DNA from: Escherichia phage PECP14
Sequence record: OQ870555.1
Direction: 5' to 3' (one strand)
Length of the DNA stretch: 64,000 bases
Shown here: piece after piece, positions 55,446-61,064 of the stretch
Layout: every line of letters starts with the position of its first letter
Numbering within the stretch: position 1 is the first letter of the stretch
The notes under the pieces: model-generated
What the model saw: only the letters and a program-made list of their open reading frames with translations
The model's database searches: none
What the model was told of the DNA's origin: nothing
Position numbers and translations under genes: made by a program

Positions 55446-55520
55446 GCACCTTTAGCTGAGATGGATTAGCGCTTGCCTGAAGAGCTTGAGAGGTTGGATC
55501 GTTACCAACGGGGTGCACCA
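55446..55520 (+). tRNA. tRNA-Phe-like (anticodon GAA) with atypical stems
   Basis: Acceptor GCACCTT/GGGGTGC, D-stem GCTG/TAGC, loop CTGAAGA, unusual T-loop ATCGTTA, CCA; anticodon stem has two mismatches. Confidence 0.45.
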
Positions 55521-56425: not shown

Positions 56426-56528
56426 TATTCTGTGTAGAGTTAAGTAAACCGGTAGCCAACCAGCTATCATTACTGATATCGAATTCAGTCACAGATACCA
56501 TTTTTCATTAACAACTGAGGAAATAGAT

Positions 56529-57084: not shown

Positions 57085-57287
57085 AACAAATAGAGTAAAG
57101 GCTACAGTAGGTGCACCCTTACGGACTGCTACACCGGACTCTATTCATTAACAAACATTCTAGCGTGGTGGAGAGGGGACACCAGCTTGCCGAGGGTAGA
57201 AGCTCGTTCGATTCGAGTGAAAGAATGGTTCTCGTAAATCCGCACAAGTGATAGCAGGTTCAAGTCCTGCCTAGATTGACTTATTAT
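57085..57287 (+). other. tRNA-like remnants / unassigned structured segment
   Basis: Two T-arm-like hairpins (GCTCG-TTCGATT-CGAGT near 57202-57218; GCAGG-TTCAAGT-CCTGC at 57254-57270) and an acceptor-like pairing ATAGAGT/ACTCTAT (57090-57146), but no complete cloverleaf or CCA in my folds. Confidence 0.35.
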
Positions 57288-57361: not shown

Positions 57362-57609
57362 AATTTAGGTTTCTGCTTCCTAGAGAACGAACTCCTAGAT
57401 AAACAAGGTGATGAGTTTCCGGCCGGTTCTAGTCGCTGAAAATCCTCCCGACCAGGTAGGTGTAAGTAAACGAAAGTTTACTTATTAAGTAAGTCCGACA
57501 CATCGGCGGGTGTGTTCTAGTACTTAAAGAAGGTCTAGCAAACTTTCTCGCTAGCATGAGTTGATAGCTCGGTGACTTACCTAATAAGTAAATTTATTAA
57601 AAAATGTAG

Positions 57610-58567: not shown

Positions 58568-58641
58568 GCTCGGTTAGTTTAATGGGAGAACCCCGTCTTT
58601 ACACGGCGGTTGCGATAGTTCGATTCTATCACCGAGTACCA
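58568..58641 (+). tRNA. tRNA-Val (anticodon UAC)
   Basis: Acceptor GCTCGGT/ACCGAGT, anticodon arm CCGTC-TTTACAC-GGCGG, T-arm GATAG-TTCGATT-CTATC, CCA. Confidence 0.7.
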
Positions 58642-58660: not shown

Positions 58661-59020
58661 TTGCAAATGCAATTATCAAGCAAGGTTCAAGGCTATTTCG
58701 GACATGTAACAATGGAGTTCGCTATCTCTAAAGGTTGGGACTTCGAACAAGATTTAGCTGAGTTCTACAAAGATATTGATCTGAACGTACCGTACATGGG
58801 ACTCTCAACTGGTCAAGAGATCACAGAAGCCGACGTGTTCAAGGCAAGTCAAGGTGAGGTAACACCTAGTTTTGCCGAGTTCTGGTTAGGTATCACACTG
58901 AAAGAAGATGCACCGGATAGTGGAGTACTAATGACTAGTATGCACTCTGGAAGCTCTGATTACCTTTTCGTTAGTGACGTTAAGGAAATACAAGAAATCT
59001 GCAAAAATGTACTTGCTTGA
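58661..59020 (+). CDS. hypothetical protein (TTG start per track; ATG 6 nt downstream)
   Basis: 119 aa ORF with RBS AAGGAATTG. Confidence 0.5.
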   Translation: MQMQLSSKVQGYFGHVTMEFAISKGWDFEQDLAEFYKDIDLNVPYMGLSTGQEITEADVFKASQGEVTPSFAEFWLGITLKEDAPDSGVLMTSMHSGSSDYLFVSDVKEIQEICKNVLA

Positions 59021-59041
59021 TGCTTAATTTCTTGTTATAAT
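59013..59041 (+). promoter_or_regulatory. early promoter module directing transcription into an ORF-free 0.36-kb segment
   Basis: TTGCTT-17 nt-TATAAT; overlaps the stop codon of the upstream gene. Confidence 0.6.
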
Positions 59042-59401
59042 ATTTATATAAATTGATGTGAAAATAGCTGCCTAGATATTAGGTGTATGACGTCTACACT
59101 AGCAGAGCTACCGAAAAAAGAGATCCTCAGGATAAACGCCGTAGCAAAATTAGTCTGATATCCATCAATTTAGTTCACTAAGGTATTAGCTCGACCTAGG
59201 ACTGGCTGCCAAAAAGCACGGTTGCAATTAGACCCATAATGGCGGGGGATACTTTGCAAGAAGTTCTAGATTAGTCCACTAGATTCAGCGGCAACTGAAT
59301 AGTGTATCGGGTTTGTGGAGAGCGGTTATCCTCTACTGGCTAATGTCTGAGGGTAATACGCACACCGAGCTAATAGCCTTAGTAAACTAGAAGGAATATC
59401 T

Positions 59402-59665
59402 ATGTTTGATCTTAAAGATATGGCTAAGAAACTAATGTCGCAACGTTATCAACAAAGAACCCTCCATAAACGAGTTTCCGATATGAAGAAACGTTGCAAT
59501 AATGCTAAGTATTATAATAGTCTTAATAAACTATCTGATATAGATCTTGCTAAAACTGAAGCAATATATAATCACTTAGTAGTAGAATCTGATATAGTGA
59601 ATAAAGATATTGCTAGGCTAGAAGCTCAGATTGTAGCAACTGTTCTCGATATGTATAGAGAATAA
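59402..59665 (+). CDS. hypothetical coiled-coil protein
   Basis: 87 aa ORF with RBS GAAGGAATATCT. Confidence 0.5.
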   Translation: MFDLKDMAKKLMSQRYQQRTLHKRVSDMKKRCNNAKYYNSLNKLSDIDLAKTEAIYNHLVVESDIVNKDIARLEAQIVATVLDMYRE

Positions 59666-59674
59666 ATAAATTTT

Positions 59675-59753
59675 GGGGAATGGGTCTGCATGGAGTGGAC
59701 ACCTCGCTTGCACCGAGGACATCAGAACGGTTCGATTCCGTTATTCTCCACCA
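59675..59753 (+). tRNA. tRNA-Ala (anticodon UGC)
   Basis: Acceptor GGGGAAT/ATTCTCC with G3-U70, anticodon arm CCTCG-CTTGCAC-CGAGG, T-arm AACGG-TTCGATT-CCGTT, A73, CCA. Confidence 0.75.
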
Positions 59754-59759
59754 AAATTC

Positions 59760-59835
59760 GGGGTCATAGGTTATTTGGTTAAACTTACTGCCTTGCAAGC
59801 AGTGGAACTCAGTTCAATTCTGAGTGACTCCACCA
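59760..59835 (+). tRNA. second tRNA-Ala-like (anticodon UGC), divergent sequence
   Basis: Acceptor GGGGTCA/TGACTCC also with G3-U70, anticodon arm ACTGC-CTTGCAA-GCAGT, T-arm CTCAG-TTCAATT-CTGAG, A73, CCA. Confidence 0.65.
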
Positions 59836-60433: not shown

Positions 60434-60523
60434 GGAAGGTAGGACATAGTGGTATGTAACAGGTCTTGAAAACCTGCCCGCTGTAGCGATATGGTGATGG
60501 TTCGACTCCATTACCTTCCTCCA
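60434..60523 (+). tRNA. tRNA-Ser (anticodon UGA), class II
   Basis: Acceptor GGAAGGT/ACCTTCC, anticodon arm CAGGT-CTTGAAA-ACCTG, long variable arm, T-arm GATGG-TTCGACT-CCATT, CCA. Confidence 0.75.
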
Positions 60524-60749: not shown

Positions 60750-61064
60750 TTCTTGAAGTATGCCGGAATCGGTAGACGGGGCTTCCTAAAGGGCGTAAGG
60801 GGAACATCCACTCCTCATAAGATACCCGAAAACGAGGCTGAGATAAATGGTCTATCTCGTGAAGGTTCAAGTCCTTCTGCTTCTTGATACATCAATGGCT
60901 CAAAGAGTAACGGTGCACCTTTCTAGAGAATTTCCTGGGCGAGAATCCAGGTGTAATCAACTAGTTGTTAGTGTGATGAGTTTCGGAGAGCCGCCACAAT
61001 TGAAGTCTTTAGAATGGGTATCGCCCTTTAGCCCCTCCGAAAGGGATAACTAGAGATTTCAATT
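60750..61064 (+). other. ORF-poor structured segment with an orphan T-arm-like hairpin and a 12-bp inverted repeat abutting tRNA-His
   Basis: GAAGG-TTCAAGT-CCTTC at 60861-60877 with no matching acceptor or CCA; arms GCCACAATTGAA (60993-61004) and TTCAATTGTGGC (61058-61069) separated by 53 nt; the 3' arm overlaps tRNA-His. Confidence 0.35.

What the first reader, a model, noticed from the sequence alone, without database searches (positions are those of the whole stretch)
59021..59401. Promoter-driven ORF-free 0.36-kb segment between a coding gene and the next ORF
A canonical promoter module (59013-59041) is followed by about 360 nt with no ORF of 60 aa or more and no tRNA-like T-arm before the next RBS and ATG at 59402. 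It may be a long structured 5' leader or a small RNA.
Basis: seen in the sequence. Interest (0 to 1): 0.45.

Follow-up and report, generated by a model that had tools for sequence, protein, structure and literature searches.

The report
Phage T5 "RNA 2H" stable RNA gene
The ORF-free stretch is a copy of "RNA 2H", a folded non-coding RNA of unknown function that phage T5 and its relatives carry behind an early promoter in their tRNA gene cluster; its existence is already recorded, but its conserved pseudoknotted fold across the whole phage family does not appear in Rfam or in the papers I could search.

Summary
A T5-type early promoter (-35 59013-59018, TG-extended -10 59036-59041, inferred start 59048) is followed by about 350 nt with no conserved ORF, no tRNA or tmRNA and no Rfam match, up to the RBS and ATG at 59402.

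The window is a T5-like Salmonella/E. coli phage (Epseptimavirus). The segment is the ortholog of promoter P13b plus misc_RNA "rna2H", annotated as "stable RNA with unknown functions" in T5, T5 st0 and Salmonella phage 5.

Comparative analysis gives a fold with strong covariation:
- a roughly 22-bp closing helix P1 with a conserved bulged G
- a 5-bp pseudoknot
- an A-rich single strand
- three hairpins
- a swappable arm

Covariance models find homologs in six Demerecviridae lineages: T5-like, Sugarlandvirus, Priunavirus, Novosibvirus, Hongcheonvirus and Vibrio Thalassavirus. In four of the six it lies just upstream of a tRNA. None turned up in bacterial genomes.

The T5-annotated ends sit in P1 as a staggered cut with a 2-nt 3' overhang, which suggests RNase III release. 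This is an inference. The window copy has two lineage-specific expansions, a 5' domain and P3.

Function remains unknown. This is a new member of a known but uncharacterised RNA. Interest is moderate.

The parts
59003..59041 (+). T5-type early promoter, ortholog of T5 P13b: A-tract 59003-59007, -35 TTGCTT 59013-59018, 17-nt spacer, extended -10 TG 59033-59034, -10 TATAAT 59036-59041
   Evidence: Sequence. 91% identity to the T5 'promoter P13b' feature. S114 annotates the same site as 'P13b-like'. Member of a promoter family of more than 20 in the window.
59048..59048 (+). Inferred transcription start (A, 7 nt after the -10)
   Evidence: The T5 P13b feature is 75 nt long. If it spans -55 to +20, position +1 falls on the equivalent A. 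This is an inference, not mapped here.
59048..59170 (+). P0 5' domain: closing stem AAUUGAUG (59051-59058) / CAUCAAUU (59163-59170) around a lineage-specific insert of about 95 nt. In T5 this is a simple 24-nt hairpin, and it is absent in Sugarlandvirus.
   Evidence: Fold. Alignments. The insert is present as a single copy in 84 phage records. It lies outside the annotated mature RNA 2H in phage 5.
59172..59193 (+). P1, 5' strand of the roughly 22-bp closing helix
   Evidence: 97.7% of cells paired, and 12 of 22 pairs keep pairing through changes on both sides across lineages.
59366..59388 (+). P1, 3' strand, with the conserved bulged G (59376)
59184..59378 (+). Equivalent of the 172-nt mature 'RNA 2H' as annotated in T5 and phage 5. 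It is 195 nt here because P3 is expanded.
   Evidence: T5, T5 st0 and phage 5 feature tables. BLAST of T5 rna2H maps its first base to 59184. The 3' end is placed by alignment.
59199..59203 (+). Pseudoknot 5' strand GGACU
   Evidence: Pairs with 59273-59277. 100% paired in 14 sequences, and 4 of 5 pairs show double changes. Also holds in PL1, DU_PP_V and ABurr.
59204..59221 (+). Conserved single-stranded A-rich segment GGCUGCCAAAAAGCACGG
   Evidence: 'CC-AA.AA' is conserved across lineages.
59222..59259 (+). P3 hairpin (UUGCA/UGCAA), carrying a nested hairpin expansion of about 23 nt relative to T5
   Evidence: UCCC/GGGA in T5, UUGC/GCAA here, CUGC/GCAG in PR1, CCUC/GAGG in DU_PP_V.
59265..59283 (+). 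Px hairpin (UCUAG/CUAGA). Its loop AUUAGUCCA holds the pseudoknot 3' strand AGUCC (59273-59277).
59284..59299 (+). P4 hairpin UUCAG-CGGCAA-CUGAA
   Evidence: The stem sequence differs in every lineage, while the loop keeps GG..A.
59300..59314 (+). Conserved junction UAGUGUAUCGGGUUU
   Evidence: 'AGUGUA' is shared with Sugarlandvirus and DU_PP_V.
59315..59365 (+). P6 variable arm, 'type B' with loop UGGCUAAU. T5 carries an unrelated 'type A' arm at the same place.
59390..59665 (+). Context only: RBS plus an 87-aa ORF inserted between the RNA and tRNA-Ala in a subset of phages. No PHROG family, and only a sub-threshold Pfam hit.

Best explanation
The segment is the gene for a stable, highly structured non-coding RNA. 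It is the ortholog of phage T5 'RNA 2H' and is transcribed by host RNA polymerase from the early promoter P13b as the first unit of a tRNA operon.

Shown here:
- Orthology and synteny with T5 rna2H.
- Absence of any conserved ORF.
- A covariation-supported fold: a P1 closing helix of about 22 bp with a conserved bulged G, a 5-bp pseudoknot between the segment after P1 and the loop of hairpin Px, an A-rich single strand, hairpins P3, Px and P4, and a replaceable arm P6.
- Presence in six lineages of Demerecviridae.

Inferred:
- The primary transcript starts at 59048.
- The RNA folds co-transcriptionally.
- It is released by a staggered double cut in P1, which matches RNase III geometry. This would give a species of about 195 nt (59184-59378) with a 10-bp terminal stem, and would leave the downstream ORF or tRNA transcript to be matured separately. 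In relatives where a tRNA follows 3-15 nt later, RNase P would do that.

My commitment on function is low confidence, about 0.3. The invariant core (pseudoknot, A-rich strand, P4 loop, AGUGUA junction) is a binding surface for a protein or RNA partner. The released RNA would act in trans early in infection. P0, P3 and P6 are dispensable periphery.
For: Identity.
- The window is a T5-like Epseptimavirus, 99.3% identical to phage STK8t.
- The T5, T5 st0 and phage 5 records annotate P13b followed by misc_RNA rna2H 'stable RNA with unknown functions' at the syntenic site.
- The alignment to T5 shows invariant blocks.

Not coding.

Structure.
- RNAalifold consensus with compensatory pairs.
- 39 Markadamsvirinae sequences: 98.4% paired against 30-44% when the partner is slid, and 0 of 500 shuffles reach the score.
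- 14 sequences from four lineages: 36 of 55 pairs change on both sides, the pseudoknot is 100% paired with 4 of 5 pairs doubly changed, and P1 has 12 of 22.

Breadth.
- Model R1 finds Sugarlandvirus (62 bits, E=3e-15), Pectobacterium DU_PP_V (59 bits), Providencia PR1 (25 bits, E=1e-5) and Proteus PL1 (22 bits).
- Model R2 scores PL1, which was not in its training set, at 73 bits (E=8e-21), and Vibrio ABurr at 29.7 bits (E=3e-9, filters off).
- All six lineages keep P1, the bulged G, the pseudoknot, P3, Px and P4.

Processing.
- The T5-annotated termini fall between P1 pairs 13|14 and after 226, which leaves a 2-nt 3' overhang.
- In Sugarlandvirus the inferred start lies immediately before the first base of the CM-defined RNA, one base before P1, and P1 ends 3 nt before tRNA-Ala.
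Against: - No expression data were available. 'Stable RNA' rests on GenBank annotations whose experimental basis I could not read. [quoted passage not shown]
- The RNase III inference depends entirely on those annotated ends. In PR1 and PL1 the same site reads GCU rather than GCC, so sequence at the cut is not conserved.
- In Markadamsvirinae an alternative 8-bp helix (CUAGGACU/AGUUCUAG) competes with Px plus the pseudoknot and is the MFE choice. Only cross-genus comparison favours the pseudoknot.
- Some T5-like phages, such as Shivani, gave only a promoter-level BLAST match, so the RNA may be dispensable.
- Nothing here identifies a partner or a phenotype.
Confidence: 0.8

Rival explanations
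1. It is only a cis-acting processing and stability module. P1 would be an RNase III site, as in rRNA precursor stalks or T7 early-RNA sites. It would separate and stabilise the downstream tRNA or mRNA transcript, and the released RNA would have no function of its own.
For: - It is always the first element after a promoter and directly precedes a tRNA or an RBS.
- P1 is about 22 bp, and the annotated termini have RNase III geometry.
- P0, P3 and P6 are freely swapped.
Against: A processing site needs only the stem. Yet about 150 internal nucleotides keep a pseudoknot, three hairpins and conserved unpaired motifs across six lineages whose helix sequences have diverged completely. T5 annotators list it as an accumulating stable RNA.
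Confidence: 0.2
2. It is a riboswitch-like cis-regulatory sensor that controls transcription or translation of what follows.
For: It sits directly after a promoter. A compact pseudoknotted core with conserved unpaired nucleotides is typical of aptamers.
Against: - No expression platform: no terminator-like site follows it.
- The downstream partner varies between tRNA-Ala, tRNA-Leu and unrelated ORFs.
- The closing helix is a very stable 22 bp rather than a switchable short P1.
- No Rfam riboswitch matched at E<=10 or in four homolog loci searched at E<=1.
Confidence: 0.05
3. It encodes one or more small proteins. Several GenBank records place 'hypothetical protein' CDSs here.
For: Short ORFs of 23-32 aa exist in the window copy, and some records annotate CDSs under the match.
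Against: - 17 of 33 homologs have no ORF of 20 aa or more on either strand.
- The only recurrent ORF lies in the optional P0 insert and changes frame with a 1-nt A-run indel.
- Substitutions are compensatory in helices, not codon-periodic.
Confidence: 0.02
4. The conservation is at DNA level, for example a homing-endonuclease target, recombination hotspot or replication element, rather than in an RNA.
For: The T5 tRNA region is full of HNH endonuclease genes. One sits right after the element in phage SA001. The modules are mosaic, as expected from recombination at conserved blocks.
Against: Strand-specific G-U pairs and dozens of compensatory double substitutions preserve helices, including a pseudoknot. 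This is unexplained by a DNA site. The element always lies sense-downstream of a promoter.
Confidence: 0.03

Closest known systems
Phage T5 stable RNA 'RNA 2H' (gene rna2H, T5s04; GenBank NC_005859/AY543070, AY692264; also Salmonella phage 5, AJ604531)
   Same: Orthologous sequence with the same promoter (P13b). Same position between tRNA-Val and tRNA-Ala, and the same core fold.
   Different: The window copy has a roughly 95-nt expansion of the 5' hairpin P0 (also present in phage 5), a roughly 23-nt expansion of P3, a 'type B' P6 arm in place of T5's 'type A', and an 87-aa ORF inserted before tRNA-Ala. The closest genome records leave it unannotated.
Phage T4 stable RNAs species 1 and 2 (rnaC, rnaD) in the T4 tRNA cluster (from my own knowledge)
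   Same: Phage-encoded stable RNAs of unknown function, co-transcribed and processed with phage tRNAs.
   Different: Neither ARAGORN nor the Rfam tRNA model detects a tRNA-like structure in RNA 2H, and the CCA-like 3' end is not conserved.
RNase III-processed stems: rRNA precursor stalks and phage T7 early RNA processing sites (from my own knowledge)
   Same: The 5' and 3' flanks pair into a helix of about 22 bp with an internal irregularity. The annotated ends imply a staggered cut with a 2-nt 3' overhang.
   Different: Cleavage by RNase III has not been shown. The helix encloses a conserved pseudoknotted domain of unknown function, not rRNA.
Large phage-associated structured RNAs found next to tRNA genes (GOLLD, ROOL; Rfam families; from my own knowledge)
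   Same: Phage-borne, structured, adjacent to tRNAs, function unknown.
   Different: Those are about 500-800 nt. No Rfam family, these included, matched the region at E<=10 or four homolog loci at E<=1. RNA 2H is about 180-220 nt plus optional domains.
T5 tRNA-like stable RNAs RNA1, RNA2 and RNA3
   Same: Same gene cluster and the same 'unknown function' annotation. Homologs are also present in this window.
   Different: By eye, the RNA2 sequence shows a recognisable T-arm and acceptor-like ends. For RNA 2H, ARAGORN and the Rfam tRNA model give nothing.

Membership tests
T5 RNA 2H (rna2H) stable RNA | Sequence homology to the annotated T5 rna2H | tested here: met
   BLAST of T5 rna2H positions 1-110 maps to window 59184-59315 at 79% identity with the P3 insert. 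Invariant blocks are seen in the alignments. CM scores of 197-209 bits.
T5 RNA 2H (rna2H) stable RNA | Synteny: directly downstream of promoter P13b, between tRNA-Val and tRNA-Ala | tested here: met
   tRNA-Val 58568-58641, promoter 59013-59041, tRNA-Ala 59675-59753. Same order in T5, S114 and phage 5.
T5 RNA 2H (rna2H) stable RNA | Accumulates as a discrete stable RNA with the annotated ends | not testable with these tools
   No expression data were available. The ends are known only from GenBank features.
tRNA or tRNA-like RNA | Cloverleaf with a T-arm and acceptor/CCA end detectable by ARAGORN or the Rfam tRNA model | tested here: not met
   ARAGORN finds nothing in 59021-59401. The Rfam tRNA model does not match even at E<=10. 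The 'GCC' 3' end of T5 reads GCU in PR1 and PL1.
tmRNA | tRNA-like domain plus tag ORF | tested here: not met
   ARAGORN reports no tmRNA, and no Rfam tmRNA hit.
Any curated Rfam family (riboswitches, ribozymes, 6S, Y-like, GOLLD/ROOL and others) | Covariance-model match | tested here: not met
   No hit at gathering score. None at E<=10 on 58950-59480. None at the homologs' coordinates in four loci covering four other lineages, searched at E<=1.
Riboswitch / cis-regulatory leader | Expression platform (terminator or SD-sequestering helix) coupled to the aptamer, with a conserved regulated gene | tested here: not met
   No terminator-like site follows it. The downstream element varies between tRNA-Ala, tRNA-Leu and unrelated ORFs.
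RNase III-processed stable RNA | Helix of about two turns formed by the flanks, with termini staggered to give a 2-nt 3' overhang | tested here: inconclusive
   The geometry fits: a 22-bp P1, and the T5 ends lie at 13|14 and after 226 of the A4 columns. Cleavage itself and the origin of the annotated ends could not be verified.
Protein-coding gene | Conserved ORF | tested here: not met
T4 rnaC/rnaD stable RNAs | Sequence or structure homology | not tested
   No T4 sequence was fetched. The resemblance is contextual and from memory.

The most novel reading that the evidence does not exclude
RNA 2H is a pan-Demerecviridae functional RNA of a new class. Its conserved pseudoknot core would bind and neutralise or redirect a host factor, for example a tRNA- or RNA-targeting defence nuclease, an RNA-processing enzyme or a translation component. 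Alternatively it could have catalytic activity of its own. Either would make it an RNA-based host-takeover or anti-defence device that has sat unrecognised in the T5 tRNA cluster for about 40 years.
Probability: 0.15. Interest if true: 0.8.

Novelty: new member of a known kind. Interest (0 to 1): 0.48.

Why it matters
Phage tRNA clusters have recently drawn attention as counter-defence loci, in work on T5 tRNAs against PARIS, retrons and anticodon nucleases (titles seen). The 'stable RNAs' interspersed with those tRNAs have stayed functionally blank since the 1980s.

This work shows three things about RNA 2H:
- It is conserved across all sampled subfamilies of T5-like phages.
- It has a defined pseudoknotted architecture, with identifiable invariant nucleotides and dispensable arms.
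- It has no Rfam family.

Together these turn an anonymous annotation into a testable object. The pseudoknot can be targeted with disrupting and compensatory mutations, the core can be used for pull-downs, and the ends can be mapped in rnc (RNase III) mutants. The result also gives annotators a covariance model for a feature that most T5-like genome records leave blank or mis-call as small CDSs.

Tried and rejected
- Generic sigma-70 and terminator scan. It missed the promoter because TTGCTT matches TTGACA at only 3 of 6 positions, and it found no terminator. It was not informative.
- Rfam at gathering and permissive thresholds on the window and on homologs: nothing but tRNAs.
- Single-sequence MFE z-scores were only -2.2 (+ strand) and -2.9 (- strand), so they do not discriminate the strand. 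Strand was settled by the promoter, G-U pairs and covariation.
- The RNAalifold helix 'P2' (CUAGGACU/AGUUCUAG), 'P2a' and the lower P4 extension. These are invariant within Markadamsvirinae and absent in the other lineages. I replaced them with Px plus the pseudoknot.
- Host mimicry. There was no blastn match in 5,426 E. coli genomes. The two genome-collection hits to a 21-nt motif were chance matches without the RNA.
- Four A/T-rich IMG/VR pattern hits (L059, L064, L065, L067) were chance matches with no P1.
- tRNA-like or CCA-end reading of the T5 3' end 'GCC'. It is not conserved: GCU in PR1 and PL1.
- T-loop reading of the P4 loop (CUGGUAA in some lineages). It does not fit CGGCAA or UUGGCG, so I dropped it.
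- 'RNA2H = homolog of RNA2'. I saw no sequence similarity.
- Literature searches for RNA2H, T5 stable RNAs and T5 transcriptomes returned no paper describing this RNA.
- The T5 st0 deletion does not remove rna2H, so it gives no information on dispensability.

Full report
**What the window is.** ARAGORN finds 28 tRNA genes on the + strand between 48 and 63 kb. The 1-kb stretch around the finding is 99.3% identical to Salmonella phage STK8t and 93-96% identical to many Epseptimavirus and Tequintavirus genomes. The window is therefore the tRNA-cluster region of a T5-like phage (Demerecviridae, Markadamsvirinae).

**Checking the observation.**
- The sequence reads TTGCTT (59013-59018), a 17-nt spacer, then TGT-TATAAT (-10 at 59036-59041).
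- The generic promoter scan did not list it, because TTGCTT shares only 3 of 6 positions with TTGACA. That scan found no more promoter-like sites than shuffles give.
- The block 58992-59058 is 91% identical to the feature 'promoter P13b' of T5.
- The same architecture (A-tract, TTGCTN, 17 nt, TATAAT) recurs more than 20 times in the window. Phage S114 annotates the homologous site as 'P13b-like'.
- Between 59021 and 59401 the longest ORF on either strand is 32 aa.
- There is no tRNA or tmRNA. No Rfam family matches at gathering score or at E<=10.
- The RBS GAAGGAA and ATG 59402 are as described.

**What it is.** The T5 reference record places, between tRNA-Val and tRNA-Ala, 'promoter P13b' followed by misc_RNA rna2H, 'RNA2H, stable RNA with unknown functions', 172 nt. 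The same feature is annotated in T5 st0 and in the 'Bacteriophage 5 tRNA gene region' record. Wang et al.'s T5 record leaves the interval blank.

- Aligning the window with T5 and S114 shows invariant blocks interrupted by two window-specific insertions of about 95 nt and about 23 nt, and one replaced segment.
- blastn finds the segment in about 540 phage records. In roughly three quarters of them the RNA core is covered, and the rest match only the promoter.
- In T5, BF23, S114, JLBYU43 and others the RNA runs directly into tRNA-Ala.
- The 87-aa ORF at 59402 is present only in a subset, and in phage SA001 an HNH endonuclease gene sits there instead.
- The conserved unit is the RNA, not a leader-ORF pair.

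**Not coding.** Among 33 distinct homologs, 17 have no ORF of 20 aa or more on either strand. The only recurrent ORF lies in the optional 5' insert and shifts frame with a 1-nt indel in an A-run.

**Structure within Markadamsvirinae.** RNAalifold on 33 sequences, and pair counts on 39 core sequences, give a closing helix P1 of about 21 bp enclosing several hairpins.
- 98.4% of cells are paired, against 30-44% when the 3' partner is slid.
- 13 pairs change on both sides.
- No shuffle out of 500 reaches the covariation score.
- Three modules are mixed and matched among phages: the 5' hairpin P0 (short or expanded), P3 (UCCC/GGGA or UUGCA/UGCAA with a nested hairpin), and the arm P6 (two unrelated 'types'). 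This marks them as periphery.

**Extending the family.**
- A covariance model of the core (R1) found a divergent copy in Klebsiella phage IME260 (Sugarlandvirus; 62 bits, E=3e-15), immediately upstream of tRNA-Ala. It also found copies in two more Sugarlandviruses and in Providencia phage PR1 (Priunavirus; 25 bits, E=1e-5).
- A degenerate P1 pattern scan of IMG/VR added Pectobacterium phage DU_PP_V (59 bits) and a PR1 relative. Four other hits were chance.
- R1 also found Proteus phage PL1 (Novosibvirus; 22 bits, E=1e-4).
- A second model built from four lineages (R2) scored PL1, which it had not seen, at 73 bits (E=8e-21).
- With filters off, R2 found a copy in Vibrio phage ABurr (Ermolyevavirinae; 29.7 bits, E=3e-9 over 3.9 kb) between tRNA-Glu and tRNA-Ala. 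I had already picked this out by its fold.
- No copy was found in 5,426 E. coli genomes by blastn. A 21-nt motif scan of one genome per bacterial species found none either.
- No Rfam family matches the homologs in four loci from other lineages.

**The consensus fold.** The cross-lineage comparison changes the picture in the centre of the molecule.

In every lineage there is a hairpin Px whose loop pairs with the five nucleotides that precede the conserved GCUGCCAA motif:

| Lineage | Px stem | Pseudoknot pairing |
|---|---|---|
| Window and T5 | UCUAG/CUAGA | GGACU/AGUCC |
| Sugarlandvirus | CGGA/UCCG | GAGUC/GACUC; GAGUC/GGCUC and GAGCC/GGCUC also occur within the genus |
| PR1 | GUGAGA/UCUCAC | GAACC/GGUUU |
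| DU_PP_V | UCCG/CGGA | GAACC/GGUUC |
| PL1 | GGGA/UCCC | GAACU/GGUUC |
| ABurr | CUGAGAA/UUCUCAG | UGCCA/UGGCG |

On the 14-sequence alignment:
- The pseudoknot is 100% paired, with 4 of 5 pairs changed on both sides.
- P1 is 97.7% paired, with 12 of 22 pairs changed on both sides.
- Overall 36 of 55 pairs show double changes.
- 89% of cells are paired against 34-45% when slid, and 0 of 500 shuffles reach the score.

The 8-bp 'P2' helix that MFE and alifold prefer in T5-like sequences is mutually exclusive with Px plus the pseudoknot and is not conserved elsewhere. I treat it as an alternative conformer or an artefact of three CUAG repeats.

Conserved unpaired elements:
- a single bulged G on the 3' strand of P1, about 12 bp from its base, present in all six lineages
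- the A-rich strand (CC-AA.AA)
- the P4 loop (GG..A)
- AGUGUA after P4

**Window coordinates.**

| Element | Coordinates |
|---|---|
| P0 | 59048-59170 |
| P1 | 59172-59193 / 59366-59388 |
| Pseudoknot | 59199-59203 / 59273-59277 |
| A-rich strand | 59204-59221 |
| P3 | 59222-59259 |
| Px | 59265-59283 |
| P4 | 59284-59299 |
| Junction | 59300-59314 |
| P6 | 59315-59365 |

**How it is probably made (inference).**
- If the 75-nt T5 promoter feature spans -55 to +20, transcription starts at the A equivalent to window 59048.
- In Sugarlandvirus the inferred start lies immediately before the first base of the CM-defined RNA, one base before P1, and there is no P0. P1 ends 3 nt before tRNA-Ala.
- In T5, DU_PP_V and ABurr a tRNA follows within 4-15 nt. 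RNase P cleavage of that tRNA would define the precursor's 3' side.
- In the window, PR1 and PL1 an RBS follows within a few nucleotides instead.
- The mature ends annotated for T5 and phage 5 (UAUUAGCUCG ... AAUAGCC) fall inside P1. The 5' cut is between pairs 13 and 14, and the 3' cut is two paired nucleotides beyond the bulged G. This leaves a 2-nt 3' overhang, the hallmark geometry of RNase III on a two-turn helix (RNase III geometry from established knowledge).
- The equivalent species here would be 59184-59378 (195 nt).
- I could not verify how those ends were determined.

**What it does.** This is unknown. The data favour a molecule with a function of its own over a bare processing signal. 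The interior keeps its architecture and specific unpaired nucleotides across lineages in which every helix has been rewritten. The arms P0, P3 and P6 are expendable.

I commit, at about 0.3, to a trans-acting RNA whose pseudoknot core binds a protein or RNA partner early in infection. The cis-acting processing or stability module is the main rival, at about 0.2. A riboswitch is unlikely because there is no expression platform and the downstream genes vary. A small protein or a DNA-level element is essentially excluded.

**Comparison with known RNAs and novelty.** The RNA is a member of the T5 RNA 2H kind. Homology, synteny and fold were all tested and met. Accumulation as a stable RNA was not testable. 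It is not a tRNA, a tmRNA or any Rfam family. Its nearest analogies are the T4 stable RNAs rnaC and rnaD and other phage RNAs found beside tRNAs, all of unknown function (from memory).

The existence of the gene is already on record. What I did not find described anywhere searchable is the fold, the pseudoknot and the family-wide distribution.

**Verdict.** It is a new member of a known but uncharacterised kind, of moderate interest.

Noticed in passing
window 60752-60896; 57156-57280; 56428-56500; 57494-57545: Homologs of other T5 'stable RNAs of unknown function' are also present and unannotated in close relatives: RNA1 (81% identity), RNA2 (90%), RNA3 (96%) and part of RNAIV (79%). T5 RNAI and RNAIII have no match in the window.
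   Followed up: partly
window 55446-55517; 59675-59753; 60434-60523: The tRNA callers disagree. Rfam reports a tRNA at 55446-55517 (33 bits) that ARAGORN does not list. ARAGORN's first tRNA-Ala (59675-59753, 79 nt) and tRNA-Ser(tga) (60434-60523) do not reach the Rfam gathering score. These may be unusual or degenerate tRNAs.
   Followed up: no
window 59675-59753 and 59760-59835: There are two tandem tRNA-Ala(UGC) genes, where T5 has one tRNA-Ala followed by tRNA-Leu. The copy number of tRNA-Ala varies among relatives.
   Followed up: no
window, more than 20 sites, e.g. 42145, 46514, 53479, 54715, 55803, 57610, 62189 (+); 21745, 24328, 25360 (-): A large family of T5-type early promoters with the shared pattern A-tract / TTGCTN / 17 nt / (TG)TATAAT. 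The generic consensus scan misses most of them.
   Followed up: partly
window 59336-59343 (P6 loop UGGCUAAU) versus 59185-59190 (P1 5' strand AUUAGC) and 59270-59276 (AUUAGUC): The type-B P6 loop mimics the 3' strand of P1. It could therefore pair with the P1 5' strand or with the Px loop. In Sugarlandvirus the loop changes together with P1 (UAAUUGC is shared by the loop and the P1 3' strand). T5's type-A arm lacks this feature. It may be a tertiary contact or a conformational switch, and I could not explain it.
   Followed up: partly
window 59196-59203 / 59263-59269: An alternative 8-bp helix (CUAGGACU/AGUUCUAG), built from three CUAG repeats, is mutually exclusive with Px plus the pseudoknot. 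It is invariant in all T5-like copies, so it cannot be evaluated by covariation.
   Followed up: partly
window 59402-59665 and 58661-59020: The ORFs flanking the RNA are variable cargo. The 87-aa ORF has no PHROG family and only a sub-threshold Bromodomain hit, and GenBank's 'Rho-associated coiled-coil kinase 2' label looks spurious. The upstream 117-119-aa ORF belongs to phrog_7572 (unknown function) and is absent in T5 and BF23.
   Followed up: partly
L053 17949-18130 (Providencia phage PR1) and L069 1484-1633 (Proteus phage PL1), upstream of their RNA 2H homologs: Both carry a shared GC-rich hairpin-like block (..GGGTTGG..CCAACCGACGCCTTAAGTGGC..). They also carry a copy of the last 6-8 nt of the P1 3' strand just before P1. 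This may be another structured element or an alternative pairing partner.
   Followed up: no
L070 49360-49662 (Vibrio phage ABurr): A second unannotated gap of about 300 nt before tRNA-Leu folds into a long closed structure (-90 kcal/mol). It may be another stable RNA and is not related to RNA 2H by the models used.
   Followed up: no
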